Translations under genes and position numbers: made by a program
Source of the DNA: Nostoc minutum NIES-26
GTDB lineage: Bacteria; Cyanobacteriota; Cyanobacteriia; Cyanobacteriales; Nostocaceae
Assembly (NCBI GenBank): GCA_003326215.1
Contig: LXQD01000205.1
Span: 65,301-97,300, forward strand
DNA length: 32,000 nucleotides
Reading direction: 5' to 3'
In this document: positions 2 to 31,472 of the stretch, piece after piece
Position numbering within the stretch: position 1 is the stretch's first letter
Layout: the number at the start of each line of letters is the position of its first letter
Notes under the pieces: generated by a model
Seen by the model: only the letters and a program-made list of their open reading frames with translations
Told to the model about the DNA's origin: nothing
The model's database searches: none

Positions 2-1465
2 GCAGGGGTAGTGGCTGTTCCGGCTTATCCACCCAAACAAAATCAAAAGCTTACCAGATTACAATCAATCATCACAGATGCCCAAGCAAAGGTAGCTCTA
101 ACTAATCAATCTCTGTTCGAGAATATTAAAGGACGCTTTGAACAAGATACAGAACTGGCAAAAATCCATTTACTTGCTACCGATAGCATTGCTGAGGAAT
201 TAGCCTCAGACTGGCGAAAACCGGAAGTTAACAGCAACACTTTAGCCTTTCTGCAATATACTTCGGGTTCTACTGGTACGCCCAAGGGAGTCATGGTCAG
301 TCATGGCAATCTGCTGCACAACTTGGAGTACATGAAGCAGGCATTTAATCTGACCCCTGACAGCGTATCTGTATCTTGGCTACCTGGTTTCCATGATATG
401 GGTCTGATCGATGGACATCTGCAACCTTTGTATACAGGGTTTAGGTGTATCCTGATGCCGCCTGCATCTTTTGTGCAGCGACCGATTCGATGGCTGCAAG
501 CAATTTCGCACTATAAAGCAACTCATTGCGGTAGTCCCAATTTCGGCTACGACCTCTGCGCCAGCAGCAATCTCACTCCAGAACAACTAGAATCTCTCGA
601 TTTAAGTCATTGGCATAATGCCTACAGTGGTGCTGAACCAGTTCGCAAAGAAACAATGGAGCGGTTTGCCGCTAAATTTCAAGCTTGTGGTTTTCACTCT
701 CACTTCTTCTACCCTTGCTATGGTTTGGCAGAGTCTACTTTGATGGTTTCAGGTGGCAACATCAAAGATGAACCGATTTACTGTCAAGTCGAGGCAGAAG
801 CACTCGAACAAAATCGGATTATCCCAGCTAATGCAGATACCAAAAATGTTAGATATTTGGTAGGGTGTGGGCACTCTTGGCTAGATGCGAAAATTGTCAT
901 TGCTAACCCAGAGACAATGACGCAATGTGCCCCTAGCGAAGTCGGAGAAATTTGGGTTTCTGGTTCCAGCGTGGCTCAAGGTTATTGGCAAAGACCAGAA
1001 GCAACAACACAAACATTTCAAGCATATCTGCAAGATGGAAGCGGCCCATTTCTCCGCACTGGTGATTTCGGATTTTTACAGGATAGTGAGTTGTTTGTCA
1101 CCGGACGCGTTAAGGACATGATTATTATCCGGGGTCGCAATCACTATCCCCAGGATATTGAATCGACGGTAGTGAAAAGTCATCCAGCTTTACGAATTGG
1201 TTTCGCGGCGGCTTTTTCTGTTGAATTAGATGGCGAAGAGCAACTCGTCGTTACTTCTGAGGTTGAGCGGACTGCCATTCGCAAACTGAATGTCGATGAA
1301 GTCGTGGCGGCTATCCGACAAGCGGTATCAGAAGAACACGAACTTCAAGTTTATGCTGTGGTGCTGTTGAAGCCTGCAAGTATTCCCAAAACTTCTAGCG
1401 GTAAAATTCAGCGTCATGCCTGTCGAACTAAGTTTCTAGAAGGAACGCTGGATGTTGTAGATATG
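2..1465 (+). other. Fatty acyl-AMP ligase (FAAL)-type adenylation domain, N-terminus missing
   Basis: AMP-binding motifs [55 protein letters not shown] and KTSSGKIQR are present. An ACP and KS follow directly, the typical FAAL loading architecture. Confidence 0.8.
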
Positions 1466-9459: not shown

Positions 9460-9714
9460 ATGAGTCTTAACAGTTTACAACTACAAATCTTCACTTTCGT
9501 TGCTAAAATCACAGGACACGATGTAGAAGACTTAGAACCAGATATGTATCTGGAAAGCGATATGGGATTAGACTCTATCAAAATGGTAGAGCTACTCAAC
9601 ACCTTTATTCAAATGGTTCCACAGGAAAAACAAGCTGAATTTTTGCAAGTTGTACCCATGGAACAACTAATGCAACTCCAAACTTTAGCAGAAGTTCTAC
9701 AACTCGGTCAAACT
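9460..9714 (+). other. N-terminal carrier protein domain (probable ACP of the split PKS module 2)
   Basis: Motif SDMGLDSIKMVELLNTF, with the Ser codon tct at 9574-9576. The domain starts at residue 1, leaving no room for an N-terminal docking domain. Confidence 0.8.
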
Positions 9715-17554: not shown

Positions 17555-17995
17555 ATGTCTACATCAATTCCAACACCAATTATGCCCGTATCCACTCAAC
17601 TAGGAACACCTGAAATTATGTCTTTAGCAACTCCAACAGCAATTATACCTGTACCGACTCAAATAGAAACTCCTGAAATTCAAAAAGGTTTTAATCTTTT
17701 AGGATTAAAAGTCTCAGATATTGAATTGAACGAGCTGAAACATGGCAATACCGTTTCATTAGAAAGCAGACGACTAAGTGAAATAGGTTCAGTATTGATA
17801 CTTGCAGAAGCTCTTTCATCATTGCATTCAGTTAAAAACATTACCTTCAAAGATTTACCAAAAGTTGTTACAGAATCCACAAATTGTTCTGGCATTCCCG
17901 TCCATCGATGGAATGATGATATACTTGGTAAGTGTTACCTGCTGCTCACTTTAGTAGATGGTCAACCTGCATTCAAGATATCATCTCAAAAGTAG
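17555..17995 (+). CDS. Hypothetical protein with an N-terminal tandem 21-aa Pro/Thr-rich duplication
   Basis: A 146-aa ORF with an ATG start. No recognisable family motifs and no signal peptide. It contains two 63-nt repeats at 17558-17683. Confidence 0.45.
   Translation: MSTSIPTPIMPVSTQLGTPEIMSLATPTAIIPVPTQIETPEIQKGFNLLGLKVSDIELNELKHGNTVSLESRRLSEIGSVLILAEALSSLHSVKNITFKDLPKVVTESTNCSGIPVHRWNDDILGKCYLLLTLVDGQPAFKISSQK
17558..17683 (+). repeat. 2 x 63-nt tandem duplication inside the hypothetical CDS
   Basis: 17558-17620 encodes STSIPTPIMPVSTQLGTPEIM and 17621-17683 encodes SLATPTAIIPVPTQIETPEIQ. Confidence 0.85.
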
Positions 17996-19908: not shown

Positions 19909-20664
19909 ATGATTGACACAAATCGTTGGATTGTCCGCTATCAATCCCATCCTAAAGTTCGTTTGCGCTTATTTTGCTTTCCTTATGCTGGAGGTAGTAC
20001 CTCTACATATCGTAAATGGTCGGAGTTATTACCATCAGATATTGAAGTTTGTCCTGTACAACTTCCTGGACGGGAAAACAGATCGATGGAAGCTCCTTTC
20101 ACTCATGTTACACCGCTGGTTGAGAGTTTATTACCAGTTTTAAACTCATATCTAGACCTTCCTTATGCTTTTTTTGGCCACAGTATGGGAGCCTTAATTA
20201 GTTTTGAATTAGCCCGTCACATTAGAAAACAACGCTACCCCGAACCTCAACATTTATTTGTTTCTAGCCGTCGCTCTCCTCATCTTCCTTCTTCAGAGCC
20301 TCCTATTCATAAACTACCTGAAACCGCTTTTTGGGAGCAACTTCGCCTCTATGATGGTGTACCCGATACACTATTACAAAGTTCTCAAATAGCCAAGTTG
20401 TTTCTACCACTGTTGCGAGCAGACTTTGCCATTCATGAAACATATAAATACACCCCAGGCACTCAATTTAATTACCCAATAACAGCCTTTGGCGGGTTAC
20501 ACGATCGCAAAGTCGGCTCTGAAGAAATTATGGCTTGGCGAGAGTTAACTAATAGTGATTTCTACCTTCACTTATTTCCTGGCAATCACTTATTTTTACG
20601 TAAGGAGTACCAGCAAATTTTATCAGTTATAGCTCGAAATCTGAGTCAAAAAATTGCAGCTTAA
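19909..20664 (+). CDS. Type II (editing) thioesterase
   Basis: Motifs LFCFPYAGGS, the nucleophile elbow GHSMGALISFELA, GGLHDRKV (Asp) and FPGNHLFL (His). At 251 aa, its length is typical for this family. Confidence 0.9.
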   Translation: MIDTNRWIVRYQSHPKVRLRLFCFPYAGGSTSTYRKWSELLPSDIEVCPVQLPGRENRSMEAPFTHVTPLVESLLPVLNSYLDLPYAFFGHSMGALISFELARHIRKQRYPEPQHLFVSSRRSPHLPSSEPPIHKLPETAFWEQLRLYDGVPDTLLQSSQIAKLFLPLLRADFAIHETYKYTPGTQFNYPITAFGGLHDRKVGSEEIMAWRELTNSDFYLHLFPGNHLFLRKEYQQILSVIARNLSQKIAA

Positions 20665-20735: not shown

Positions 20736-20792
20736 ATGACAGATTAGTTCAAAATGGTACATTACATCAGACTAATCACCAGCTTAAACATC

Positions 20793-21893
20793 ATGGAAAT
20801 TAACAAATTGCTGAATACTAACATCGAATCTTCAATGATTTTAATGACACCAATGCAGATCAAAGAGCAATTGCCTTTAACCAAAGTTGCTACAGAAACT
20901 GTATTGCAAGGTAGACAAGCTATACAAAATATACTTGACGGCAAAGATTCCCGAAAATTTATTATTGTTGGCCCTTGCTCTATCCATGATTTCGATGCTG
21001 CTTTAGAATATGCAGAAAAATTGAAAATTATTGCCGAACAGGTAAAAGACAAACTGTTGATTGTGATGAGAGTTTACTTTGAAAAACCTAGAACTACAAT
21101 TGGATGGAAAGGATTAATTAATGACCCCGACTTAGATGGCTCATTTAACATTCAAAAAGGATTATTTACGGCACGCAATTTGTTACTCAAAATTGCTGAA
21201 TTAAAATTACCTGCTGCTACAGAAGCTTTAGATCCTGTAACACCTCAATATTTCTCCGATTTAATTTCTTGGGCTGCAATTGGAGCGCGCACAATTGAAT
21301 CTCAAACCCATCGGGAAATGGCAAGCGGATTATCCATGCCAATAGGTTTTAAAAATGGTACTGATGGTAATATTCAAGTTGCTCTTGATGCTATTCAATC
21401 AGCTAATAAACTCCACCATTTTTTAGGAATTGACCAAAGAGGTCAAGTTTGTACATTTAAAGCAAAAGGAAATAACTACGGTCATATTATTTTACGTGGG
21501 GGAGATGGTAAACCGAATTTTGATGCACCTACTGTAGCTTGGGTAGAGAAGAAGCTAGAGGGACTTAAGCTACCTCAAAGAATCATCATTGACTGTAGTC
21601 ATGGAAATTCTTATAAAGATCATAAGCTACAGGCCACTGTCTTTAATAACGTTCTCCAGCAAATTGCAGATAGGAATAAATCAATTGTTGGCATGATGCT
21701 TGAGTCCAACTTGTATGAAGGAAATCAGAAGATACCTACAGATTTAAAAAAATTGAAGTATGGCGTATCTGTTACAGACAAATGTATTAGTTGGGAAGAA
21801 ACAGAAGAAATAATTCTATCTGCACATCACAAGTTAAGCAGAATGGTTGTATCTGGAACTCCTCTGCGAAACTTATTGACAACTGTAAGATAG
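20793..21893 (+). CDS. 3-deoxy-D-arabino-heptulosonate-7-phosphate (DAHP) synthase, type I-alpha (AroG/F/H-like)
   Basis: The protein is collinear with E. coli AroG as I recall it: IIVGPCSIHD, MRVYFEKPRTTIGWKGLINDP, IGARTIESQTHREMASGLSMPIGFKNGTDG, IILRGG and MLESNLYEGNQ. The ORF is open from 20754. ATG 20793 or ATG 20835 fits the AroG N-terminus better. Confidence 0.88.
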   Translation: MEINKLLNTNIESSMILMTPMQIKEQLPLTKVATETVLQGRQAIQNILDGKDSRKFIIVGPCSIHDFDAALEYAEKLKIIAEQVKDKLLIVMRVYFEKPRTTIGWKGLINDPDLDGSFNIQKGLFTARNLLLKIAELKLPAATEALDPVTPQYFSDLISWAAIGARTIESQTHREMASGLSMPIGFKNGTDGNIQVALDAIQSANKLHHFLGIDQRGQVCTFKAKGNNYGHIILRGGDGKPNFDAPTVAWVEKKLEGLKLPQRIIIDCSHGNSYKDHKLQATVFNNVLQQIADRNKSIVGMMLESNLYEGNQKIPTDLKKLKYGVSVTDKCISWEETEEIILSAHHKLSRMVVSGTPLRNLLTTVR

Positions 21894-22221
21894 CTATTGT
21901 CAATACCATGCTTCTTGCAAAAAATCAAAAAATTGGGGATGTCATTCTGTAAGTGAAAGCTTGCCACAGAGAGGCGTTCCCATAGAATAGGGTAGCATTT
22001 TGCGGAATATTTTCACTCGTAAAACATGATATCTTAAGTATTTTTGTAATAAGTTTTGAGTCTTAAATATATAAAGCTTACTACTATTTATAGCAAACAA
22101 ATATCCTGAAAATCACAAATCTTTCCCTTGTAAATGTATTTAAATCAGCTTAAATTAATAATTATCACCCTGAAAAATTTCTGAAAAATTATCAATCTAT
22201 AACAATACAAATAGGTGATTT

Positions 22222-22467
22222 ATGACTAGACAAGAAATCTTTAGCAAAGTTCAAGCTGTTGTCGCCGAAGAACTAGCCAATGAACAACAAAAAGTTACCC
22301 CAGATGCTAATCTAACTTTAGATTTAGGAGCAGATTACTTAGATTTAATCGCAATGTTTCAAGCATTAGAAGATGCTTTTGGTACAAAAATTCCTCCTAA
22401 GGAAGCAAAGCAACTTTTAACAGTACAAGAAGTTGTAAATTACATAGGTCAGACAGTTATTTTTTGA
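22222..22467 (+). CDS. Acyl carrier protein-like protein with Tyr in place of the phosphopantetheinyl Ser
   Basis: The 81-aa protein is collinear with E. coli AcpP. DLGADYLDLIAMFQALEDAF aligns with [20 protein letters not shown], and the codon is tac at 22336-22338. Confidence 0.8.
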   Translation: MTRQEIFSKVQAVVAEELANEQQKVTPDANLTLDLGADYLDLIAMFQALEDAFGTKIPPKEAKQLLTVQEVVNYIGQTVIF

Positions 22468-22476
22468 GTTTTAACC

Positions 22477-23733
22477 ATGATAAATAAAAATTTAAGAAGG
22501 GTTGTAGTTACAGGTATGGGAGCTATTACCCCTCTAGGAAATTCGGTGAAAGAGTATTGGGAAGGGTTGATTGCTGGACGCAGTGGTATTGATGCAATTA
22601 CCCACTTTGATGCTTCTTTGCATACTTGTAAAATCGCAGGTGAAGTTAGAGGCTTTGACCCTTACGACTATTTAGAACGCAAAGATGTCAAGCATATATC
22701 GCGTTTTTCTCAATTTGCAGTTAGTGCAAGTCTACAAGCGATCGCTAATGCTGGGTTAAAAATCAACGACTCAAATGCTACTCAAGTTGGCATTATTATA
22801 GGCAACGGCATCGGCGGTCTGCAAGTGATCGAGGAACAGCAAAAAATCTTCCTGGCTCAAGGGCCCAAACGCTGTAGTCCTTTTACAATTCCCATGACAA
22901 TCTCTAACATCGCAGCCGGACTCACAGCAATTTATACAGGGGCTAAAGGGCCGAACTTTTGCACTGTTACCGCTTGCGCTGCTGGTTCTAATGCGATTGG
23001 AGAAGCTTTTCGCTTAATTCAAACAGGCCAAGCTCAGGCAATGATTTGTGGTGGTACAGAAGCAGCGATTACACCTCTATGTATAGCTGCCTTCAGTTCT
23101 GCCAAAACCCTAACAACTAGAAATGACGAACCCACACGAGCCTCTCGTCCCTTTGATGCAGAGCGAAATGGCTTCGTCATGGGAGAAGGAGCGGGGATTC
23201 TACTCATAGAGGATTTAGAACATGCTCTGCGTCGGGGAGCTACTCATATTTATGCAGAGATTGTTGGCTATGGCCTGACTTGTGATGCTTACCATATAAC
23301 CACTCCCACACCCAGCGGTGAGGGAGCCACCAGAGCTATGGAACTAGCCTTAAAAGATGCTGGCTTGTTCCCCAACGAAGTCAGCTATATTAACGCTCAT
23401 GGCACTAGCACTGTAGCTAACGATGCCACAGAAACCTTAGCTATTAAGCAAGCTTTAGGAAACCGTGCCCTCGAAATTCCTATTAGTTCCACCAAATCCA
23501 TGATTGGCCATCTTTTAGGTGCATCTGGAGGCGTTGAAGCTATTGCCACAGTCTTAACAGTAGGTCTTGATTTAATTCCACCAACAATCAATTTAGATCG
23601 GCCAGATCCAAAGTGCGATTTAGACTATGTTCCTTACCAAAGCAGAAGTCAAAGAGTAGATGTTGCTCTTTCTAACTCTTTTGGCTTTGGAGGACATAAC
23701 GCTTCTTTAGCTTTTAAAAAGTTTGAAGACTAA
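22477..23733 (+). CDS. fabF: Beta-ketoacyl-ACP synthase II (FabF-like), cluster-embedded paralogue
   Basis: Motifs RVVVTGMGAITPLG, TVTACAAGSNAIGEA (Cys), NAHGTSTVANDATE (His), KSMIGHLLGASG (His) and FGFGGHNASLAF. Confidence 0.9.
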   Translation: MINKNLRRVVVTGMGAITPLGNSVKEYWEGLIAGRSGIDAITHFDASLHTCKIAGEVRGFDPYDYLERKDVKHISRFSQFAVSASLQAIANAGLKINDSNATQVGIIIGNGIGGLQVIEEQQKIFLAQGPKRCSPFTIPMTISNIAAGLTAIYTGAKGPNFCTVTACAAGSNAIGEAFRLIQTGQAQAMICGGTEAAITPLCIAAFSSAKTLTTRNDEPTRASRPFDAERNGFVMGEGAGILLIEDLEHALRRGATHIYAEIVGYGLTCDAYHITTPTPSGEGATRAMELALKDAGLFPNEVSYINAHGTSTVANDATETLAIKQALGNRALEIPISSTKSMIGHLLGASGGVEAIATVLTVGLDLIPPTINLDRPDPKCDLDYVPYQSRSQRVDVALSNSFGFGGHNASLAFKKFED

Positions 23734-23736
23734 TAA

Positions 23737-23785
23737 AGGCAGAAGGCAGAGGGCAGGAGGCAGAAGGTAGAAGTCAGAAGTCAAA
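23737..23785. repeat. STRR array, 7 x AGGCAGA-like heptamers
   Basis: The units are aggcaga aggcaga gggcagg aggcaga aggtaga agtcaga agtcaaa. The array starts immediately after the FabF-like stop. Confidence 0.85.
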
Positions 23786-23849
23786 AGTTATTATTTTTCT
23801 CCCCTATATCCCTCATCTCCCTCACAAGAATAACTAGCAAATAAAGCAG

Positions 23850-24860
23850 ATGAAATCCTTAGTAAGACAAGGTGTTGTTCTCACGGGGACTGGCTCTGCG
23901 GTTCCAGATACGTGCTTGGACAATCATCAACTCAACCAAATGGTAGTTACTTCTGATGATTGGATAACGACTCGCACAGGAATTCGCCGCCGCCATCTTC
24001 TTGCGCCGAAGAATTCGCTCACAGCTATGGCTACTGAAGCTGCTCAAAAGGCTATAGCGATGGCAGGTATAGCACCACAAAACTTAGATTTGATTATTTT
24101 AGCTACATCGACTCCTGATGATTTGTTTGGGAATGCTAGTCAAATTCAAGCTCGACTGGGAGCTACCCAAGCCGTAGCTTTTGATTTGACAGCAGCTTGC
24201 TCTGGTTTTGTGTTTGGTTTGGTAACTGCCGCCCAATTTATGCGGACTGGAGCCTATCAAAATGTTCTCCTCATCGGTGCTGAAGTGCTTTCTCGGTGGG
24301 TAGATTGGTCTGATAGACGTACTTGCGTTCTCTTTGGCGATGGAGCAGGAGCAGTAGTTTTACAAGCAAGTGAATACGATTGTCTCTTGGGTTTTCAACT
24401 TCATACTGATGGTACGCAAAATCAATATCTAAAATTGGGATTTCAAGAACAAGAGAAACTACTAATTGATAGTATCAGGGTTGGTCAAGGTACATACCAA
24501 CCAATTGCAATGAACGGACAAGAAGTTTATCGCTTTGCCGTTCAAAAAGTCCCTGAAGTTATTGAAAAGGCACTATACCGAGCCGGATTAGATATTGAAC
24601 AAGTAGACTGGCTATTGATGCATCAAGCCAATCAGCGAATTTTAAATGCTGTGGCCGAACGTTTAAATCTTCCCGAAGAAAAAATCATTAGCAACGTAGC
24701 AAACTATGGAAACACTTCTGCTGCTTCAATTCCTCTAGCTTTGGATGAAGCTGTTCGTCGAGGGCAAATCAAACCACATGATATTATCGCTCTGGCTGGC
24801 TTTGGCGCTGGGCTTTCTTGGGGTGCTGCGATTTTTGAATGGGGTTCTCTTAATTCGTAA
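23850..24860 (+). CDS. fabH: Beta-ketoacyl-ACP synthase III (FabH-like) with an intact Cys-His-Asn triad
   Basis: Motifs GTGSAVP, DLTAACSGFVFGL (Cys), LMHQANQRIL (His), NYGNTSAASIPLAL (Asn) and GFGAGLSWG. The last three codons and the stop lie inside an AATTCGT heptamer array. Confidence 0.9.
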   Translation: MKSLVRQGVVLTGTGSAVPDTCLDNHQLNQMVVTSDDWITTRTGIRRRHLLAPKNSLTAMATEAAQKAIAMAGIAPQNLDLIILATSTPDDLFGNASQIQARLGATQAVAFDLTAACSGFVFGLVTAAQFMRTGAYQNVLLIGAEVLSRWVDWSDRRTCVLFGDGAGAVVLQASEYDCLLGFQLHTDGTQNQYLKLGFQEQEKLLIDSIRVGQGTYQPIAMNGQEVYRFAVQKVPEVIEKALYRAGLDIEQVDWLLMHQANQRILNAVAERLNLPEEKIISNVANYGNTSAASIPLALDEAVRRGQIKPHDIIALAGFGAGLSWGAAIFEWGSLNS

Positions 24861-24973: not shown

Positions 24974-26698
24974 ATGAATACACTATCTCTACAACAGAAC
25001 ATCACGCGTTCTTGGCAAGTGCCTTTTACTGGCAATTCAAATTCAGACAATTTAAATTCAATTGTAACTGTAGGCGATCGCAATCTGACTATAGACGAGG
25101 TGGTGAATGTAGCCCGTCATGGCACACAGGTGCGTTTAACTGATAATGTAGATATCCTAAAAGGCGTGCAAGCATCGTGTGACTACATCGATCGTGCAGT
25201 TGAAACAGGCCAACCAATATACGGAGTTACATCTGGCTTTGGTGGAATGGCACATGTTGTCATTTCCCGCGAACAAGCAGCCGAACTTCAAACTAACTTA
25301 ATTTGGTTTCTAAAATCTGGAGCGGGTGCGAGATTGCCGTTGGCAGATGTCCGCGCCGCCATGCTTTTGCGTGCCAATTCACACTTATATGGTGCATCGG
25401 GTATACGACTCGAATTGATTCAACGAATTGAAACTTTTTTAAATGCTGGTGTGACACCGTATGTCTATGAGTTTGGCTCTATTGGTGCTAGTGGCGATTT
25501 AGTACCTTTGTCTTATATTACTGGGGCGCTCATAGGTTTAGATCCCAGCTTTACAGTTGACTTCGACGGTAGAGAAATGGATGCTCCTACAGCGCTGTGT
25601 CGGCTGGGTTTGCAGCCTTTGCAACTGCAACCGAAAGAAGGCTTGGCAATGATGAACGGCACTTCTGTGATGACAGCGATCGCAGGTAATTGCGTGTATG
25701 ATGCTAGAGTCTTACTTGCACTAGCAATGGGCGTACATGCCTTAGCCATCCAAGGTTTATACGGGACAAATCAATCGTTCCACCCGTTTATCCATAAACA
25801 CAAACCCCATCCCGGTCAACTGTGGGCAGCAGACCAGATGTTTTCCCTGCTTAAAGGTTCATACTTAGTCCGTGAAGAATCAGATGGCAAGCATGAATAT
25901 CGCGGTCAAGAACTAATCCAAGATCGTTATTCTCTGCGCTGCCTTCCACAGTATATGGGGCCAATTGTTGACGGAATATCGGAGATTGCCGAGCAAATCG
26001 AGCTAGAAATGAACTCAGTCACCGATAATCCATTGATTGATGCCAACAAACAAGCTAGTTATCATGGTGGCAATTTTCTCGGACAGTATGTAGGCGTGAC
26101 AATGGATCGCTTGCGCTACTATATAGGGCTATTAGCTAAACACATCGACGTACAGATCGCGCTGCTTGTTTCACCAGAGTTTAGCAACGGACTCCCACCT
26201 TCTTTAGTTGGCAATCTAGAGCGTAAAGTCAACATGGGACTTAAAGGTTTGCAAATTAGTGGAAACTCGATCATGCCACTATTGACCTTCTATGGAAATT
26301 CTTTAGCCGATCGCTTTCCTACCCATGCCGAACAATTTAATCAAAACATTAACAGCCAAGGATATGTTTCAGCAAATCTGACACGTCGTTCTGTAGACAT
26401 ATTTCAATATTATATGGCGATCGCGCTGATGTTTGGAGTCCAAGCCGCTGACTTGCGTACATATAAAATGACTGGTCACTACGATGCACGTACATGCCTT
26501 TCTACCGGAACTTTAGAGTTGTATGCGGCAGTTCGTCAAGTAGTTGGACATCAGCCAACATCTCTGCGTCCATACATTTGGAACGATAACGAACAGTCCT
26601 TGGACGAGCATATCGCCTTGATTTCAGCTGATATCGCTGCTGGCGGTCTAATTGTGCAAGCAGTTAGCGATATTTTGTCAAGCTTGAAGTCAATATAA
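24974..26698 (+). CDS. pal: Phenylalanine ammonia-lyase (MIO-dependent, cyanobacterial short PAL type)
   Basis: The MIO triad ASG sits in GSIGASGDLVPLSYITG (25487-25495). The Phe-selectivity pair F-L sits in NLIWFLKSG (25307-12). The protein is near-collinear over its whole length with the Nostoc punctiforme and Anabaena variabilis PAL sequences as I remember them. Confidence 0.92.
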   Translation: MNTLSLQQNITRSWQVPFTGNSNSDNLNSIVTVGDRNLTIDEVVNVARHGTQVRLTDNVDILKGVQASCDYIDRAVETGQPIYGVTSGFGGMAHVVISREQAAELQTNLIWFLKSGAGARLPLADVRAAMLLRANSHLYGASGIRLELIQRIETFLNAGVTPYVYEFGSIGASGDLVPLSYITGALIGLDPSFTVDFDGREMDAPTALCRLGLQPLQLQPKEGLAMMNGTSVMTAIAGNCVYDARVLLALAMGVHALAIQGLYGTNQSFHPFIHKHKPHPGQLWAADQMFSLLKGSYLVREESDGKHEYRGQELIQDRYSLRCLPQYMGPIVDGISEIAEQIELEMNSVTDNPLIDANKQASYHGGNFLGQYVGVTMDRLRYYIGLLAKHIDVQIALLVSPEFSNGLPPSLVGNLERKVNMGLKGLQISGNSIMPLLTFYGNSLADRFPTHAEQFNQNINSQGYVSANLTRRSVDIFQYYMAIALMFGVQAADLRTYKMTGHYDARTCLSTGTLELYAAVRQVVGHQPTSLRPYIWNDNEQSLDEHIALISADIAAGGLIVQAVSDILSSLKSI

Positions 26699-26744
26699 TT
26701 CGTAATTTCATGCAGACAATCTCGGCTAGAAAGGAGATTTAATA

Positions 26745-28295
26745 ATGAATATTGCACAAAATGTAGAACTTGGTTGTTATCTTTTTCCTAATAAACCAGC
26801 GCTCATCTTTGAAGAAGAATCTTTCACATACAAAGACTTGAACGAAAGAGCAAATCGTGTTGCTAACGGTCTACGCAGTTTGGGAATTAGGCGTGGAGAG
26901 CGTGTAGCTTTGTTTTTGCCAAACATTCCAGAATTTGTCTTTTCTTATCTTGGCATTCTGAAAATTGGTGCGATTGCTGTCTCAGTTAACGTCATGCTCA
27001 AAAGTGATGAAGTAAGCTATATTCTCAATGATTGTGCTGCCAAAGTAATCATTACAACAGAGTCTCAAAGTGAGTATGTGCAAGAGGCAGATTTAATCGC
27101 CTTACAACACATTTTAATTACAGAAGGCACAGCTAAAAAAGGTATTAGTCTAACAGAACTAATGGCAAAAGCTTCTCCTGAAGCACACGCAGTGGAAATG
27201 GCTCGCCACGCTCCTGCAAGTATCCTCTACACATCAGGCACTACAGGCTTTCCCAAAGGAGCTACACTTTCTCATGGCAATGTTCTTTTCAACAGCTATA
27301 GTGCTAACTGTTGTTATCGTATTCAAAAGAGCGATCGCTTACTACTTTACTTACCTTTATTCCATTGTTTTGGTCAAAATGCAATTCTCAACGCTAGTCT
27401 ATCTGCTTGTGCAACCCTGATATTACAACGCCGATTTGACTTAGAACAAGTCTTGAAAACCATCACTGTACATCAAGTGACAATGTTATTTGGAGTACCG
27501 ACAGTATTCATTAAACTGCTGAATATGGATACATCTGACTGTAACCTGAAAAATATTCGCTATTACTTTTCAGCAGCAGCACCCATGCCTTCTGAAGTAG
27601 CACAGCGTTGGTATCAAAAGTATGGAATTGTAATTCATGAAGGGTATGGTTTAACAGAAACATCGCCATTTGCTGCTTATAATCACAACTTGAAATACAA
27701 ACTAGGTAGCGTTGGTACTTCCATTGCAAATGTAGAAATAAAGATTGTTGATGGTAATGGTTATGAAGTACAAGCAGGCGAGTTAGGTGAAATAGTTATT
27801 AAAGGGCCAAACGTCATGCTTGGTTATTGGAATCGTCCTTTTGAAACAGCAGAGGTTATTAAAAATGGTTGGTTCCATACTGGTGATATTGGTCGGATGG
27901 ATGAAGAAGGTTTTTTCTACATCGTTGACCGCTTAAAAGACATGATTATTTTCTCTGGATTTAAAGTTTACCCAACAGAAGTTGAAAATATTATTTATCA
28001 ACATCCAGCGGTTGCTGAAGTAGCTGTATATGGAGTTGACGATCGCCTCAAAGGCGAGATTGTCAAAGCAAATATTGTCCTTAAAACTGGTCATCCAATA
28101 ACAGAACAACAAATCATTGACTTTTGTTATCAAAAGATGGCAGCTTACAAAATTCCCCGCGTAATTAAGTTTGTAGATTCAATTCCCAAAAACTCAACTG
28201 GTAAAGTATTGAAGCGAGTTTTACGTCAGGAATCAACAGTAGTCAGTAGTAGAGACGCGATTAATCGCGTCTGTACAGGAAGTAGTTGTCAGTAG
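26745..28295 (+). CDS. Aryl/acyl-CoA ligase (4-coumarate/cinnamate-CoA ligase-like)
   Basis: Motifs LYTSGTTGFPKGATLSHGN, GYGLTETS, HTGDIGRMDEEGFFYIVDRLKDMIIFSGFKVYPTEVE and PKNSTGKVLKR. The C-terminal ~19 aa (VVSSRDAINRVCTGSSCQ) are encoded by a dispersed repeat. Confidence 0.88.
   Translation: MNIAQNVELGCYLFPNKPALIFEEESFTYKDLNERANRVANGLRSLGIRRGERVALFLPNIPEFVFSYLGILKIGAIAVSVNVMLKSDEVSYILNDCAAKVIITTESQSEYVQEADLIALQHILITEGTAKKGISLTELMAKASPEAHAVEMARHAPASILYTSGTTGFPKGATLSHGNVLFNSYSANCCYRIQKSDRLLLYLPLFHCFGQNAILNASLSACATLILQRRFDLEQVLKTITVHQVTMLFGVPTVFIKLLNMDTSDCNLKNIRYYFSAAAPMPSEVAQRWYQKYGIVIHEGYGLTETSPFAAYNHNLKYKLGSVGTSIANVEIKIVDGNGYEVQAGELGEIVIKGPNVMLGYWNRPFETAEVIKNGWFHTGDIGRMDEEGFFYIVDRLKDMIIFSGFKVYPTEVENIIYQHPAVAEVAVYGVDDRLKGEIVKANIVLKTGHPITEQQIIDFCYQKMAAYKIPRVIKFVDSIPKNSTGKVLKRVLRQESTVVSSRDAINRVCTGSSCQ
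28237..28278 (+). repeat. Family A repeat (CAGTAGT x2 plus GTAGAGACGCGATTAATCGCGTCTGTACAG) forming the 3' end of the CoA-ligase CDS
   Basis: The sequence is cagtagtcagtagtagagacgcgattaatcgcgtctgtacag. The core agacgcgattaatcgcgtct is a perfect 20-bp palindrome. Confidence 0.85.
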
Positions 28296-30094
28296 TATTT
28301 TCCCCTCAGCTCTGTTACCCCCAATCCCTAAAGATCGTGAATTTAAAAAGTATTACCAAAACCTTAAATCCATTGGAGCAGTTGCAAAAAAGTACTGCTA
28401 TCCAACCCAATCTACTTTCACTTGACCAGACAAGCGATTTAACTGTTGCAGCAGCTTTAGTCAAGACACTGGAAGATTTAGGAGTCCGCTATGCTTTTGG
28501 CCTGTTCGGAGGCGGAATCACACCCCTTGTTGCTAGCTTAGAGCAAAGTTCAATCCAAGTACTGCAATTTCGTCATGAAGCCGGAGCCGCATTTGCAGCT
28601 ATTGAGTCTTACTTTGCTAGCGGACACCCAGTTGTAGTATTCAGCACAACTGGCCCAGGTATTACTAACGCTTTGACAGGATTGTTTGCTGCTCGTTGGG
28701 AAGGAGCAAAAATCATTTTCCTCTCGCCTTGCACCTCTGCAACACAACGCGGACGCTGGGCTTTTCAAGAAACCAGTCTGTACACCATGTCTAATACAGG
28801 CATTTTTACTTCAGGAACATTATTTCATTACGCCACCACTGTTGAATGTAGCTCGGAACTGCCAAAAATTGCTCGTAAGCTCTTGGCAGGTATGGGAAAA
28901 CCAGGGGGCTTTGTAGCTCATATCAGTATCCCTAGAGCAATTCAGACAAGTTCGCTGATGACACCATTACCTCGCGTGAATTTCTCTCAATCTTCGGTAA
29001 CTGCTGGGGAAGATGCTATCTGCAAGTCTTTACAACTGCTGTGTGAGGGGCCATTTGCCATTTGGGTTGGTTTCGGTGCTAGAGGTGCAGCCGCGGAAAT
29101 CCGCCAACTTGCTGAGAGAACCAAAGCTGCGGTGATGTCATCCTCTCGTGGTAAGGGGATATTTCCTGAAGATCATCCTCAGTTTGTGGGTGTTACAGGC
29201 TTCGGAGGACATAGCTCTGTTGTGAAGTATATGCAAGAGCATCGTCCTTTACGCGTACTGGTTTTGGGAACTCGGCTAGGTGAATTTACCTCGTTTTGGA
29301 GTCCGGTTATGGTTCCTTCACGCGGGTTTATACACGTAGATATTGACCCGGAAGTGCCAGGAACTGCTTATCCAGCAGCGGAGACATTTGCCGTCCACTC
29401 CGATATTGGAGCTTACGTTAAAGCATTGCTTAAGTATTTTCCACAAACTTATGGTTTGTCACCAATATTACCTTTACCTCGTGGCGATCGCCAATTAATC
29501 AAGCCCTATGGAGAAGGTCTAGTACGCCCTGAATTATTGATGGATGCAATTCAAAGGGTAATTGTTGAAAAAAGCGATGCAGTAGTAATGACCGAGGCAG
29601 GTAACTCCTTTGCTTGGGGAACCCACACGCTCAGATTTACTACACCAGGTCGTTACCGGGTAAGTACTGGGTTTGGCTCGATGGGGCACGCTGGCACGGG
29701 TATTTTAGGTGCTGCACTGGCGCGAAATCGTAAGGCGATCGCCATTCTTGGTGATGGTGCTATGCTCATGAACAGCGAAATTACTACCGCTGTCAAACAC
29801 AAAATTCCTGCCGTCTGGATTGTACTCAATGATGCACGTTACAACATGTGCGATCAAGGCATGAATATGGAAGGATTCTATGGTGTAGATGCAGAGATAT
29901 CCACCGCAGATTTCGTGATGATTGCCCGTGGTATGGGAGCTGATGGCATTCGTGTAGACAGCGAGTTTGATGTCGAAGCAGCCTTAGAAACAGCTCTAGC
30001 CTCTACTGTACCCTTTGTTGTTGACGTAGCGATCGACCCGACACGACCAGCACCAATTGGCACTCGAATTAACAGTTTAATCAGTAGTCAGTAG
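28286..30094 (+). CDS. Thiamine-diphosphate-dependent enzyme (acetolactate-synthase/carboligase family)
   Basis: An N-terminal Pyr-domain segment LVKTLEDLGVRYAFGLFGG and the catalytic Glu context FRHEAGAAFAA are present. The ThDP motif is GDGAMLMNSEITTAVKHKIPAVWIVLND, with GDG at 29750-29758. There is no in-frame ATG near the 5' end. The start could be TTG 28286 (overlapping the upstream stop), GTG 28337, or TTG 28373/28382. Confidence 0.85.
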   Translation: MSVVFSPQLCYPQSLKIVNLKSITKTLNPLEQLQKSTAIQPNLLSLDQTSDLTVAAALVKTLEDLGVRYAFGLFGGGITPLVASLEQSSIQVLQFRHEAGAAFAAIESYFASGHPVVVFSTTGPGITNALTGLFAARWEGAKIIFLSPCTSATQRGRWAFQETSLYTMSNTGIFTSGTLFHYATTVECSSELPKIARKLLAGMGKPGGFVAHISIPRAIQTSSLMTPLPRVNFSQSSVTAGEDAICKSLQLLCEGPFAIWVGFGARGAAAEIRQLAERTKAAVMSSSRGKGIFPEDHPQFVGVTGFGGHSSVVKYMQEHRPLRVLVLGTRLGEFTSFWSPVMVPSRGFIHVDIDPEVPGTAYPAAETFAVHSDIGAYVKALLKYFPQTYGLSPILPLPRGDRQLIKPYGEGLVRPELLMDAIQRVIVEKSDAVVMTEAGNSFAWGTHTLRFTTPGRYRVSTGFGSMGHAGTGILGAALARNRKAIAILGDGAMLMNSEITTAVKHKIPAVWIVLNDARYNMCDQGMNMEGFYGVDAEISTADFVMIARGMGADGIRVDSEFDVEAALETALASTVPFVVDVAIDPTRPAPIGTRINSLISSQ

Positions 30095-30252
30095 TAGAGA
30101 CGCGACGCCAGTCGCTACAACGGGGGGAACCCCCCTTCGGGTGACGCTCGCAGGCTCGCTAACGCTACGCTAACACAGTTGCCTGCGGAGGGAAACCCTC
30201 CCGCAGCACTGATTCACCGCAACGCGCTGGCTCATTAATCGCGTCTGTACAG
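30082..30252 (+). mobile_element. Family A repeat split by a nested 129-bp insertion (MITE-in-repeat)
   Basis: The left half cagtagtcagtagtagagacgcga lies at 30082-30105 and the right half ttaatcgcgtctgtacag at 30235-30252. Together they reconstitute the intact 28237-28278 copy exactly. The insert at 30106-30234 has its own hairpins, ggggggaacccccc and ctgcggagggaaaccctcccgcag. Confidence 0.75.
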
Positions 30253-30341
30253 TTGTTATCAGATTAATTGCGTCTGTTGTCATTAGTTATTCTCCGTGTC
30301 CTCGCGTCCCCTCATTACCCCACAACCAAAGGAAATTTCCC

Positions 30342-31472
30342 ATGATCTATCCACCCGTAGGTATTCGCTCAATTGCAATTAATTTTCCTAGTGTCATTCG
30401 CACTAATGATTATTGGCGCAAAAATTACCCTGATTTAGTTGCAATGGCAGAGGAAAAAAGTCTATCAAAGGTGTTTTCGCCTGCTGATTCTACCCCCAGC
30501 AATCAGTTTGAACAGGTAATGACACCGTATCTCAAAGACCCATTCCGTGGTACTATTGAGCGCCGAGTTCTCGGTTCGGATGAGTCATCGCTAACACTAG
30601 AGTATCAAGCAGCCAAGAATGCGATCGCAGCGGCAAATCTATCTCCAGAAGAAATCGATTTGATGATTGTTGCTTCACTCTGGCCGGAAAATATTCTACC
30701 TGGCAATGCCGCCTTTCTTGCTGGTCAACTCGGTCTGCGCGGTGCTGCTTGGAATTTGGATTCAACCTGTTCTAATGCTATGGTTGCTCTGCAAAACGCC
30801 ACTGCACTGGTGCGAACTGGAGAGTATCGCAATGTGCTGGTTGTGGTTTCTTGCACTTACTCTCGCTTTACCGATGAAAACGATACCCTCTCGTGGTTTT
30901 TCGGTGACGGTGCTGGAGCTTTTGTGGTTGCGCCGCTAAAACCAAGCCAGGGAATTCTTGGCAGCAAAATTGTGAATACATCTGCAACTTGTGGCACCTT
31001 CTATAATGAATTAACTATGGATGCTGAGGGCAAGCCAAGGATGTTAATTAGAGCAGCAAAAAATACTAACAGAGTACTGAGTGAGACTGCTGTGGATTAC
31101 CTACGCGAGTGCTGCTTGGGTGCTGTTGCTGCTGCTGGTGTTACCCTAGAGCAAATTCAATTTTTTGCTTTTAATACACCCACTGCCTGGTATTCGCATC
31201 TCTGCACGCAGGCGTTAGGCATCGAACCAGAGCGGACGATTAACCTTTACCCCTACTATGCAAACATTGGGCCAATGCTACCCATCGCCAATCTTTACCA
31301 CGGCGCACAATTAGGCAAGATTCACGAAAACGACTTAGTTCTCGTTTACACTGTTGGTTCTGTATCTAATGCTGCTGCAACTGTAATGCGCTGGGGCGAT
31401 GTTGCTCTAAGTACAGCACCCGCAACCTCAGCTAACCTGACAGATGTGTTGCCGAAACTGGTGCTAGTCTAA
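30342..31472 (+). CDS. KAS III (FabH)-like acyltransferase, candidate furanolide-synthase-type enzyme
   Basis: The fold is FabH-like, with the Cys in NLDSTCSNAMVAL (codon 30768-30770) and FFGDGAGAF. The HQAN His position reads AFNTP, and the NYGNTSAAS region reads YYANIGPML. Confidence 0.85.
   Translation: MIYPPVGIRSIAINFPSVIRTNDYWRKNYPDLVAMAEEKSLSKVFSPADSTPSNQFEQVMTPYLKDPFRGTIERRVLGSDESSLTLEYQAAKNAIAAANLSPEEIDLMIVASLWPENILPGNAAFLAGQLGLRGAAWNLDSTCSNAMVALQNATALVRTGEYRNVLVVVSCTYSRFTDENDTLSWFFGDGAGAFVVAPLKPSQGILGSKIVNTSATCGTFYNELTMDAEGKPRMLIRAAKNTNRVLSETAVDYLRECCLGAVAAAGVTLEQIQFFAFNTPTAWYSHLCTQALGIEPERTINLYPYYANIGPMLPIANLYHGAQLGKIHENDLVLVYTVGSVSNAAATVMRWGDVALSTAPATSANLTDVLPKLVLV

What the first reader, a model, noticed from the sequence alone, without database searches (positions are those of the whole stretch)
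20754..24860. Dedicated DAHP synthase plus a type II ACP/KAS II/KAS III set between the assembly line and the PAL cassette
A second-copy-type AroG-like DAHP synthase inside a biosynthetic locus is a known way to push carbon into aromatic precursors. Here it sits directly upstream of Phe-consuming genes. The adjacent FabH-like enzyme has an intact triad and the FabF-like enzyme is intact, so both look competent for elongation. One hypothesis (inference only) links the halves of the window. Cinnamoyl- or dihydrocinnamoyl-CoA from PAL and the ligase could prime FabH. FabF could then elongate it to an omega-phenyl fatty acid, which the FAAL at 2-1465 activates for the PKS-NRPS. Omega-phenyl acyl and beta-amino acid units are known in cyanobacterial lipopeptides. 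Alternatively, the set belongs only to the furanolide branch.
Basis: inference. Interest (0 to 1): 0.6.

Follow-up and report, generated by a model that had tools for sequence, protein, structure and literature searches.

The report
Extra fatty-acid and shikimate genes, serine-less ACP
Between a lipid assembly line and a furanolide gene set lie spare copies of a shikimate-entry enzyme and two fatty-acid condensing enzymes, plus a conserved carrier-protein look-alike that cannot carry anything. The proposed phenyl-fatty-acid bridge between the two halves is therefore unlikely, and the look-alike is the only unusual part.

Summary
The four genes are real and intact. They are a class I-alpha DAHP synthase (closest to AroF, not AroG), an 81-aa ACP-like protein, a FabF and a FabH. 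All are extra copies; housekeeping acpP-fabF and fabH lie on other contigs.

The "ACP" has Tyr where the phosphopantetheine serine should be (DLGADYLDL). This holds in all 10 related loci, with both TAC and TAT codons, and omega is about 0.18. It is a selected protein but not a carrier.

FabH keeps every primer-pocket residue of 89 housekeeping cyanobacterial FabH, including the Phe87 equivalent, so cinnamoyl-CoA priming has no sequence support. The block also occurs in a locus I identify as Nostoc punctiforme pks1, whose published products include no omega-phenyl acyl unit.

FabH belongs to a cyanobacterial second-copy clade. Its other members sit in FabF-(ACP)-FabH-(FabZ) cassettes, often beside FAAL, CylC or PKS genes. 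Furanolide-synthase homologues occur in 118 of 301 Nostocaceae genomes, yet 113 of these lack the ACP-like gene.

Best reading (about 0.4): the DAHP synthase feeds the furanolide branch, and FabH/FabF boost straight-chain acyl supply for the FAAL through housekeeping ACP. Self-resistance is the main rival.

The parts
20754..21893 (+). Class I-alpha DAHP synthase paralogue (379-aa ORF; orthologues are mostly 376 aa)
   Evidence: PF00793 289 bits; TIGR00034 482.8 bits against 173.2; PRK12755 522.8 against 343. Best solved relative is E. coli AroF, 6agl, at 411 bits. The motifs GPCSIHD, KPRTTIGWKG, DCSHGNS, ESNL and SVTDKCI are visibly aligned. 68% identical to the C43 copy. Intact in 7 of 10 related loci, broken in 1, absent in 2.
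21894..22221 (+). 328-bp AT-rich gap before the ACP-like gene, with a promoter-like site at 21961-21988
   Evidence: The site matches 10 of 12 consensus positions, but promoter-like sites are not enriched over shuffles (24 found against 21.6 expected), so it is only a candidate internal promoter.
22222..22467 (+). ACP* : ACP-like protein with Tyr39 (codon 22336-22338) at the phosphopantetheine site; not a carrier
   Evidence: It reads DLGADYLDL where housekeeping ACP reads DLNADSLDT and solved ACPs read DLGADSLD. Tyr is kept in all 10 related loci with TAC or TAT. Omega is 0.18. Net charge is -6 against -14 for housekeeping ACP. The AF2 model has the ACP helix order with Tyr39 at the start of helix II, at pLDDT 61. 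An AGGTGA ribosome-binding site lies upstream, and the gap to FabF is 9 nt.
22477..23733 (+). FabF* : KAS II paralogue, catalytically intact, with a remodelled ACP-docking patch
   Evidence: TIGR03150 624.3 bits. Cys167 (22975-22977), His308 (23398-23400), His345 (23509-23511) and gate Phe404 are present. It lies in a 9-row clade (SH-aLRT 100) on a stem of 0.24 substitutions per site. Clade-diagnostic changes in E. coli numbering: K69 position R to H (His73), D71 to S (Ser75), G201 to A (Ala205). Positions 127, 133 and 137 also differ from other cyanobacterial FabF. Omega is 0.13. Intact in 9 of 10 loci.
23850..24860 (+). FabH* : KAS III paralogue with a housekeeping-type primer pocket
   Evidence: TIGR00747 380.4 bits. 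Cys117 (24198-24200), His258 (24621-24623), Asn288 (24711-24713) and Phe93, the equivalent of E. coli Phe87 (24126-24128), are present. All 27 pocket, CoA-binding and ACP-docking positions checked carry the majority residue of 89 housekeeping FabH. It lies in a 7-row clade (99) inside a 33-row second-copy clade (100). Omega is 0.12. Present in 7 of 10 loci.
17555..17995 (+). 146-aa protein of unknown family that accompanies ACP* in all 10 loci
   Evidence: 76-89% identical across the loci. No Pfam or NCBIfam match even at E=10. The AF2 model is unusable at pLDDT 45.
19909..20664 (+). Type II thioesterase (context)
   Evidence: PF00975 149 bits. It has 80-82% orthologues in type A loci and 37-39% counterparts in type B loci. 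It is 42% identical to a thioesterase near the L095 second FAS II cassette.
24974..31472 (+). Furanolide cassette (context): PAL, CoA ligase, ScyA-related ThDP enzyme, FabH-fold furanolide-synthase homologue
   Evidence: NF035927 1013 bits. 82-88% identical to the block I identify as the N. punctiforme ncl subcluster (PMC9324945).
2..9259 (+). FAAL-ACP-KS-AT-KR-ACP-KS megasynthase (context; the putative consumer of fatty acid)
   Evidence: The N-terminal AMP-binding plus DIP2-like AMP domain is the FAAL signature.

Best explanation
The finding covers two separate accessory units inside a mosaic supercluster of the Nostoc punctiforme pks1 type.

1. The DAHP synthase is an extra class I-alpha isozyme. 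It pushes carbon into the shikimate pathway for the Phe-derived furanolide cassette.

2. ACP*-FabF*-FabH* is a derived copy of a cyanobacterial second FAS II cassette. In other cyanobacteria that cassette has the form FabF-(ACP)-FabH-(FabZ) and often accompanies FAAL-primed lipid clusters.
- FabH* and FabF* are catalytically intact.
- FabH* has the ordinary acetyl-CoA-type primer pocket.
- The cluster encodes no FabD, FabG, FabZ or FabI, so both enzymes must work on housekeeping holo-ACP.
- Their most likely role is to raise initiation and elongation capacity for straight-chain, probably medium-chain, fatty acid. A thioesterase would free this acid and the FAAL would load it.

3. ACP* cannot carry an acyl chain. 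It is a conserved non-carrier partner, most likely of FabF*.

Shown here: gene identities, intact catalytic residues, the Ser-to-Tyr change and its conservation, purifying selection, paralogy and gene neighbourhoods. Inferred: the direction of metabolite flow, the chain length and the ACP*-FabF* partnership.
For: - Gene identity and paralogy.
- DAHP synthase precedent in a furanolide cluster: macA (PMC13288894). In G201/L104, where the furanolide genes are gone, the DAHP synthase is broken into fragments.
- FabH* lies in a 33-row clade (SH-aLRT 100) apart from 89 housekeeping FabH.
- Of seven sampled sister-clade contexts, six carry an adjacent FabF and four a FabZ-like gene. Three have a FAAL within 10 kb. 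Four have FAAL, CylC-halogenase or PKS genes.
- FabH is reported as the rate-limiting enzyme of a cyanobacterial FAS (Kuo and Khosla 2014, as cited in PMC4880568). An extra FabH is therefore a direct way to raise acyl supply.
- The FAAL of the N. punctiforme counterpart is proposed to load octanoic acid (PMC9324945).
- The cluster has its own true carrier (142 aa, Ser present) and a PPTase upstream, so ACP* is not needed as the assembly-line carrier.
- Omega is 0.12-0.18 for all three genes.
- The Fab set is not a general furanolide part: 113 of 118 genomes with a furanolide-synthase homologue lack ACP*.
Against: - Physical linkage is tighter to the furanolide side. The order ACP*-FabF*-FabH*-PAL is contiguous in 7 loci.
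- The block sits beside two different PKS types that share only 44-51% identity.
- In Nostoc sp. FACHB-973, ACP* and the DAHP synthase stay with the furanolide genes although no PKS is present.
- The cluster holds no dedicated holo-ACP for FAS, no FabZ and no demonstrated acyl-ACP thioesterase.
- Nothing in FabF* indicates a shortened acyl pocket. The I108 and A193 positions are ordinary, and positions 133 and 137 are smaller than in other cyanobacterial FabF, not bulkier.
- The role of ACP* is unexplained by a simple flux booster.
- No expression data could be obtained.
Confidence: 0.4

Rival explanations
1. Self-resistance by target duplication. FabF* and FabH* are product-insensitive copies of the condensing enzymes. 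They protect the producer from a KAS-inhibiting lactone made by the cluster.
For: - Essential housekeeping enzymes are duplicated inside a biosynthetic cluster.
- The FabF* clade sits on a long stem of 0.24 substitutions per site and has clade-diagnostic changes near the acyl-pocket entrance (G201A beside F202) and the docking patch.
- The N. punctiforme product 9-dehydronostovalerolactone has an alkyl tail, a lactone and an exocyclic methylene (PMC9324945). From my own knowledge this resembles electrophilic KAS inhibitors such as C75 and cerulenin, and thiolactomycin-type clusters carry FabF resistance copies (PMC5518548 was listed but not read).
Against: - Sister cassettes carry a true ACP and FabZ as well. 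That fits biosynthesis better than resistance.
- FabH* has only 9 conservative clade-specific changes, none in the pocket.
- The catalytic and known inhibitor-contact residues of FabF* checked here (Cys163, His303, His340, Phe400, Thr270, Thr307, Ala309) are unchanged.
- The type A and type B loci have different PKS products yet the same Fab set.
- Nostoclides are reported as signalling molecules without allelopathic effect in the organisms tested.
- A serine-less ACP has no obvious resistance role.
Confidence: 0.2
2. The set serves the furanolide branch in an unknown way, as in the reader's alternative. It might make or process an acyl or beta-keto unit for the furanolide synthase, or tailor the product.
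For: - Gene order ACP*-FabF*-FabH*-PAL-ligase-ThDP-synthase is constant, with 9-247 nt gaps, in 7 loci.
- The block moves with the furanolide genes between two PKS contexts.
- By gene order, the three genes would be NclA-C of the published ncl subcluster, since NclD is the PAL (PMC9324945). This is my inference; the supplement was not available.
Against: - Published sets of four furanolide genes (cybBCEF, macBCEF) are described as the core of the pathway and include no Fab genes (PMC13288894).
- 113 of 118 genomes with a synthase homologue lack ACP*.
- ACP*-FabF* persist intact in G201/L104 although all furanolide genes are gone.
- The FabH* pocket is housekeeping-like.
Confidence: 0.15
3. Cinnamoyl- or phenylpropionyl-CoA primes FabH*, FabF* elongates it, and the omega-phenyl fatty acid is loaded by the FAAL.
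For: - PAL and a CoA ligase lie directly downstream.
- FabF* has smaller residues (Thr in place of Met) at pocket positions 133 and 137 than other cyanobacterial FabF. This could tolerate a bulkier chain end.
Against: - The FabH* primer pocket equals housekeeping FabH at every position checked, including Phe at the E. coli 87 position.
- ACP* is not a carrier.
- The cinnamoyl-CoA made by the PAL and the ligase already has a consumer in the furanolide synthase. This follows the published cyb paradigm as I recall it; the original paper is not in the library.
- N. punctiforme, which I infer carries the same block, is reported to make no omega-phenyl acyl product.
- Loci lacking PAL keep ACP*-FabF*.
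Confidence: 0.05
4. The set is a decaying relic: duplicated Fab genes with no present function, the Ser-to-Tyr change marking a dead ACP.
For: The region erodes often. FabH* is lost in 3 of 10 loci, FabF* in 1 and the DAHP synthase in 3. One locus shows a clean FabF*/PAL fusion deletion.
Against: - Omega is 0.12-0.18 at dS of about 0.5-0.6.
- Tyr is kept with both synonymous codons.
- The ACP* frame is intact in 10 of 10 loci.
- The catalytic residues of FabF* and FabH* are invariant.
Confidence: 0.05

Closest known systems
pks1 (nvl + ncl) cluster of Nostoc punctiforme PCC 73102 (Krumbholz et al. 2022, PMC9324945)
   Same: Genome G226 carries unk146-ACP*-FabF*-FabH*-PAL-ligase-ThDP-synthase at 75-89% amino-acid identity, next to a type I PKS. 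I identify it as N. punctiforme from the chromosome length of 8,234,322 bp in 6 replicons and the gene position matching NclD = RS10365. If NclD is the PAL, the three Fab-type genes are NclA-C by gene order.
   Different: The PKS there (nvl, nostovalerolactone) is a different assembly line, with only 48-51% identity in KS-AT regions. That locus has no DAHP synthase and no NRPS. The paper's main text gives no role for the three genes, and the supplement was not available.
macA, the DAHP synthase of the maculalactone furanolide cluster (Nodularia sp. NIES-3585, PMC13288894)
   Same: A DAHP synthase gene sits inside a furanolide cluster and is interpreted as aromatic precursor supply.
   Different: The mac cluster also has a chorismate mutase and has no Fab genes or PKS. 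Sequence identity to MacA was not measured here.
Dedicated fab operons of lipopeptide and aromatic polyketide clusters.
   Same: Extra FabH, FabF and ACP genes inside a cluster supply a defined short or medium acyl chain to the assembly line.
   Different: Those systems have a true holo-ACP and FabH enzymes with altered primer choice. Here the ACP lacks the serine and the FabH pocket is housekeeping-like.
Cyanobacterial second FAS II cassettes FabF-(ACP)-FabH-(FabZ), several beside FAAL/ACP/CylC-type lipid clusters (seen here in L094-L096 and L099-L102; I know of no paper describing them)
   Same: FabH* is their sister clade (SH-aLRT 100). ACP* is nearer to the L095 cassette ACP (53%) than to the housekeeping ACP (43%).
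   Different: The cassette ACPs read in L095, L100 and L102 keep DSL. Gene order differs, and four of the seven cassettes have a FabZ-like dehydratase, which this locus lacks.
Plasmodium falciparum mitochondrial ACP (Falekun et al. 2021, PMC8547962)
   Same: That ACP homologue has an aromatic residue (Phe113) in place of the modified Ser. It is essential without a Ppant arm, and the aromatic side chain contributes to binding a protein partner.
   Different: It is eukaryotic and its partner is Isd11-Nfs1 in Fe-S biogenesis. Here the candidate partner is a KAS II paralogue in a bacterial biosynthetic cluster, and no binding has been shown.

Membership tests
Class I-alpha DAHP synthase (AroF/G/H type) | Family profile above the curated cut-off | tested here: met
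   TIGR00034 482.8 bits against 173.2; PRK12755 522.8 against 343; PF00793 289 bits.
Class I-alpha DAHP synthase (AroF/G/H type) | Metal and PEP-site motifs (Cys of GPCS, KPRT, His of CSHGN, Glu of ESN, Asp of TD) | tested here: met
   All are aligned and identical to E. coli AroF in the 6agl alignment.
   NF006723 (AroG) scores 426 bits, below its cut-off of 568. The best solved match is AroF at 411 bits against 359 for AroG. Feedback specificity itself cannot be read from sequence here.
FabH (KAS III) | Profile above cut-off and Cys-His-Asn triad | tested here: met
   TIGR00747 380.4 bits against 292.1; Cys117, His258, Asn288.
FabH (KAS III) | Short-primer pocket (E. coli F87', L142, F157, L189, L205 positions) and ACP-docking Arg249 | tested here: met
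   At each position the residue equals the majority residue of 89 housekeeping cyanobacterial FabH. The primer actually used is not testable here.
FabF (KAS II) | Profile above cut-off, Cys-His-His triad, GFGG gate with Phe400 | tested here: met
   TIGR03150 624.3 bits against 493.75; Cys167, His308, His345, Phe404.
FabF (KAS II) | Canonical basic ACP-docking patch (E. coli K65, R68, K69) | tested here: inconclusive
   The K65 and R68 positions are kept. The K69 position is His in all 9 clade members, against Arg in 108 of 115 other cyanobacterial FabF. The D71 position is Ser. The R127 position is Lys or Arg, against Asp, Ser or Asn in the others.
Acyl carrier protein (AcpP type) | Sequence family and four-helix topology | tested here: met
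   TIGR00517 76.9 bits against 70.45. It aligns over its full length to solved ACPs. The AF2 model has helices 3-22, 39-53, 59-62 and 68-79 at a modest pLDDT of 61.
Acyl carrier protein (AcpP type) | Serine of the DSL motif that receives 4'-phosphopantetheine | tested here: not met
   Tyr39 occupies the site in the window and in all 9 other loci. The protein is therefore not filed as a carrier ACP.
Dedicated fab operon supplying a lipid assembly line (CDA or R1128 type) | Own holo-ACP, and a FabH with altered primer choice, next to the loading enzyme | tested here: not met
   There is no holo-ACP and the FabH pocket is unaltered. The FAAL lies about 20 kb upstream in the same gene direction. 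The set may work like such an operon but is not a typical member.
Self-resistance target duplicate | A duplicated essential target inside the cluster, and a product that inhibits that target | not testable with these tools
   The duplication is shown. Inhibition by the products is unknown.

The most novel reading that the evidence does not exclude
ACP* is a carrier-protein mimic. Its Tyr39 side chain stands in for the phosphopantetheine arm. It forms a stable complex with FabF*, whose docking patch has changed in step. The complex would act as a regulatory or specificity subunit of a ketosynthase, for example by gating chain length or by keeping FabF* away from housekeeping ACP. That would be a bacterial counterpart of the Ppant-independent ACP of Plasmodium, and a new way of controlling a KAS II.
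Probability: 0.2. Interest if true: 0.75.

Novelty: new variant of a known kind. Interest (0 to 1): 0.45.

Why it matters
Extra shikimate and fatty-acid genes inside biosynthetic clusters are a familiar theme, so most of this finding is ordinary. Three points have value.

1. It removes an attractive but unsupported link (an omega-phenyl fatty acid) between the two halves of a cluster type that includes the studied N. punctiforme pks1.
2. It points to a cyanobacterial clade of second FAS II cassettes, several of them next to FAAL-primed lipid clusters. These may answer where the medium-chain starter acids of such pathways come from.
3. It documents a serine-less, Tyr-bearing ACP homologue under purifying selection, tightly coupled to a FabF paralogue. 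N. punctiforme is genetically tractable and already has an over-expression strain for this cluster, so the homologue could be tested there directly.

Tried and rejected
- Promoter and terminator scan: counts were no higher than in shuffles, so it is uninformative about operon limits.
- AF2 model of the conserved 146-aa neighbour: pLDDT 45, too poor for a fold search. Pfam at E=10 found nothing.
- Supplement of PMC9324945, for the gene table and TPM values of pks1: not held. The Moffitt 2007 PAL paper was not held either, and a search for Npun locus tags found nothing.
- Literature search for FAAL-linked FabH/FabF in cyanobacteria: no paper describes it.
- Sequencing error as the cause of the Tyr codon: rejected. 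Tyr is present in 10 independent assemblies with two synonymous codons.
- A shortened FabF* pocket of the I108F or A193M type, as a sign of medium-chain specificity: not found.
- DLGADYLD ACP-likes in other phyla as evidence of a recurrent ACP*/KS pair: rejected. ORF lists around them suggested no ketosynthase neighbour; in two Firestonebacteria loci the gene follows an ORF of over 1000 aa that I guessed to be an RND-type pump, without a family search.
- Feedback specificity of the DAHP synthase from single residues: not attempted, because I could not verify the residue numbering.

Full report
**What is there.** The window is G000:C205:65301-97300 of a 9.84-Mb Nostocaceae genome. The closest named proteins come from Dendronalium sp. 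ChiSLP03b. All large genes run on the + strand, in this order:
- FAAL-ACP-KS-AT-KR-ACP-KS megasynthase (2-9259)
- NRPS (9460-14517)
- two secreted-type proteins
- a 146-aa unknown protein (17555-17995)
- a cupin and a DUF4386 protein
- a type II thioesterase (19909-20664)
- the four genes of the finding
- PAL, CoA ligase, a ScyA-related ThDP enzyme and a FabH-fold furanolide-synthase homologue (24974-31472)

Upstream on the contig lie ABC-export genes, a response-regulator/AraC gene, an MFS gene, a 142-aa true carrier protein (Ser present) and an Sfp-type PPTase. Downstream, a GH3 gene on the other strand ends the block.

**Check of the observation.** The four genes score well above the curated cut-offs for DAHP synthase, ACP, FabF and FabH. 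FabH has Cys117/His258/Asn288. FabF has Cys167/His308/His345 and the Phe404 gate.

They are extra copies. Housekeeping acpP-fabF is on C311 and fabH on C295. Four further PF00793 matches lie elsewhere; the 297-aa one on C302 is probably a KDO8P synthase, judged from its length only. Identities to the housekeeping or nearest copy are FabF 67%, FabH 69%, ACP 43% and DAHP synthase 68%.

The DAHP synthase is nearer to Tyr-sensitive AroF than to AroG.

The important correction concerns the ACP. It reads DLGADYLDL where the housekeeping copy reads DLNADSLDT and solved ACPs read DLGADSLD. Tyr39 (TAC, 22336-22338) therefore occupies the phosphopantetheine site.

**The Tyr is a conserved feature.** I found the ACP-like gene (ACP*) in ten loci:
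- the window
- G016 (Nostocaceae CENA357)
- G131 (MAG LS6_sbin.32)
- G201/L104 (Anabaena cylindrica FACHB-243 type)
- L103 (GCA_032153685.1)
- G226
- Nostoc sp. ChiSLP01
- Nostoc sp. C117
- Nostoc sp. FACHB-973

. All ten have Tyr, encoded by TAC or TAT.

Pairwise omega is 0.18 for ACP*, 0.13 for FabF*, 0.12 for FabH* and 0.09 for PAL, at dS of about 0.5-0.9. ACP* is much less acidic than the housekeeping ACP (net -6 against -14). It has lost the acidic residues of helix II and the following loop. A modest AF2 model keeps the ACP helix order, with Tyr39 at the start of helix II.

In a library of 1.84 billion representatives, the family forms a single 50%-identity cluster. Other serine-less ACP-likes are scattered.

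**Synteny.** Four loci (window, G042, G016, G131) share the whole gene order at about 85% amino-acid identity.

Three loci (G226, ChiSLP01, C117) have unk146-(DAHPS)-ACP*-FabF*-FabH*-PAL-ligase-ThDP-synthase beside a different PKS (44-51% identity) and a different thioesterase (37-39%).

G226 has a chromosome of 8,234,322 bp in six replicons. The PAL lies at a position that fits locus tag RS10365. I therefore take G226 to be N. punctiforme PCC 73102 and its locus to be the published pks1 (nvl + ncl) cluster (PMC9324945). This identification is an inference. Because NclD is the PAL, ACP*, FabF* and FabH* would be NclA-C by gene order. The main text assigns them no role.

Three loci are eroded.
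- G201/L104 keeps the PKS-NRPS, ACP* and FabF*. Its thioesterase is truncated and its DAHP synthase fragmented. It has no FabH* and no furanolide genes.
- L103 lacks FabH* and has only a PAL remnant.
- FACHB-973 has no PKS. A clean deletion there fuses about codon 8 of FabF* to about codon 436 of PAL.

Totals across the ten loci:

| Gene | State |
|---|---|
| ACP* | present in 10 of 10 |
| unk146 | present in 10 of 10 |
| FabF* | intact in 9 of 10 |
| FabH* | present in 7 of 10 |
| DAHP synthase | intact in 7, broken in 1, absent in 2 |

**Where the Fab genes come from.** In a tree of 122 FabH sequences, the window's FabH lies in a 7-row clade (SH-aLRT 99). That clade sits inside a 33-row clade (100), separate from 89 housekeeping cyanobacterial FabH that include the genome's own copy.

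I sampled seven contexts of the 26 sister sequences.
- Six have an adjacent FabF.
- Four have a FabZ-like gene.
- Three have a true ACP with DSL.
- Three have a FAAL within 10 kb.
- Four have FAAL, CylC-halogenase or PKS genes.

. Cyanobacteria thus have a recurrent second FAS II cassette, often linked to lipid natural-product clusters. The set in the window is a derived form of it: FabZ is lost, the ACP has lost its serine, and the gene order has changed.

FabF* sits in a 9-row clade (100) on a stem of 0.24 substitutions per site.

In contrast, furanolide-synthase homologues are common. 118 of 301 sampled Nostocaceae genomes have one at 53% identity or more. Only five of those genomes carry ACP*. 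Published core furanolide gene sets include no Fab genes. The genome's second ThDP/synthase pair on C1 also has none.

All 27 FabH pocket, CoA-binding and ACP-docking positions examined carry the same residue in FabH* as in the majority of 89 housekeeping FabH. These include Phe at E. coli position 87 and Arg at position 249. Only nine conservative clade-specific changes exist. There is therefore no sign of a pocket enlarged for cinnamoyl- or phenylpropionyl-CoA.

FabF* keeps the triad, the gate and the inhibitor-contact residues checked. It differs from other cyanobacterial FabF as follows:

| E. coli position | FabF* | Other cyanobacterial FabF |
|---|---|---|
| K69 (docking patch) | His | Arg |
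| D71 (docking patch) | Ser | Asp |
| R127 | Lys/Arg | Asp/Ser/Asn |
| G201 (beside F202) | Ala | Gly |
| F133 (pocket) | Thr | Met |
| T137 (pocket) | Thr/Ala | Met |

Together with the 9-nt ACP*-FabF* gap and the altered surface of ACP*, this suggests a specialised ACP*-FabF* pair. No binding has been shown.

**Interpretation.** The DAHP synthase is best read as precursor supply for the Phe-derived furanolide. There is a precedent in macA. It also decays where the furanolide genes are lost.

For FabH* and FabF* I favour extra initiation and elongation capacity on housekeeping holo-ACP, feeding the FAAL with straight-chain acid. Three points support this:
- FabH is reported as the rate-limiting enzyme of a cyanobacterial FAS.
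- The N. punctiforme FAAL is proposed to load octanoate.
- The sister cassettes go with FAAL clusters.

Three points weigh against it:
- Linkage is tighter to the furanolide genes.
- There is no shortened FabF pocket.
- ACP* remains unexplained.

Confidence is about 0.4. Self-resistance (0.2) and an unknown furanolide-side role (0.15) remain open. The omega-phenyl bridge is unlikely (0.05).

**Comparison and novelty.** Dedicated fab genes and DAHP synthases in clusters are known kinds. This very block is present in a studied cluster, though without an assigned function. The new element is the conserved Tyr-for-Ser ACP homologue paired with a FabF paralogue. Its nearest functional precedent is the Ppant-independent Plasmodium mACP, whose Phe113 replaces the Ser and helps bind a partner (PMC8547962).

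I had seen it independently and tested it across related loci.

Noticed in passing
G000:C1:71629-74444 (outside the window): A second ThDP-enzyme plus furanolide-synthase-like pair (64% and 62% identical to the window's) lies in the same genome. tblastn at E<=1e-20 found no second PAL anywhere in the genome, and the Fab-family hits include none on C1 other than this synthase-like gene.
   Followed up: partly
301 Nostocaceae genomes: Homologues of the FabH-fold furanolide synthase (53% identity or more) occur in 118 of 301 sampled genomes, often in 2-3 copies. Several copies carry internal stop codons.
   Followed up: no
L095:5925-11573, L101:20-8185, L096:2361-11553: Second FAS II cassettes (FabF-(ACP)-FabH-FabZ-like) stand beside FAAL genes in other cyanobacteria, and in L095 and L101 also beside ACP and CylC-halogenase genes. 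They are a possible source of the medium-chain starter acids of such pathways.
   Followed up: partly
L106:10802-10933 (Nostoc sp. FACHB-973): A 43-aa ORF starts like FabF* (MISKHIRR) and continues as PAL residues of about 436-476. This marks a clean deletion that removed FabF*, FabH* and most of PAL. This locus also has no PKS between the PPTase and unk146.
   Followed up: partly
L061:18524-19582 (G201): The thioesterase is truncated to 141 aa and the DAHP synthase is split into fragments of 114 and 68 aa, while ACP* and FabF* next to them remain intact.
   Followed up: yes
window 17555-17995: A 146-aa protein with a Pro/Thr-rich repeat at the N-terminus and a conserved C-terminal part of about 100 aa. 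It is present in all ten ACP* loci, matches no known family, and its AF2 model reaches only pLDDT 45.
   Followed up: partly
L072:7218-7460, L073:10001-10246, L074:208-459, L070, L071: ACP-like proteins with the same DLGADYLD motif occur in Firestonebacteria, Omnitrophica and Terrimicrobiaceae MAGs. In two Firestonebacteria loci the gene directly follows an ORF of over 1000 aa. I guessed this to be an RND-type transporter from its length and N-terminus, without a family search. The ORF lists suggested no ketosynthase neighbour.
   Followed up: partly
L105:71-4889 (Logan contig SRR8782779_8983): Two class III aminotransferases, a 165-aa ACP with Ser, a FabH 83% identical to FabH*, and directly after it a fragment 86% identical to the C-terminal half of FabF*. 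This is a rearranged relative in a different context.
   Followed up: no
L097:14060-17607 (C205 upstream of the window): A response-regulator/AraC gene, an MFS gene, a 142-aa carrier protein (GITSLEA) and an Sfp-type PPTase precede the FAAL megasynthase. The regulator, carrier and PPTase recur at 71-83% identity in Nostoc sp. FACHB-973, next to unk146 and the DAHP synthase.
   Followed up: partly
G000:C328:38917-39654 and C328:57748-59484: Another DAHP synthase lies about 18 kb from a ScyA-like ThDP enzyme (60% identical to the window's) and PKS genes. This may be a scytonemin-type locus.
   Followed up: no
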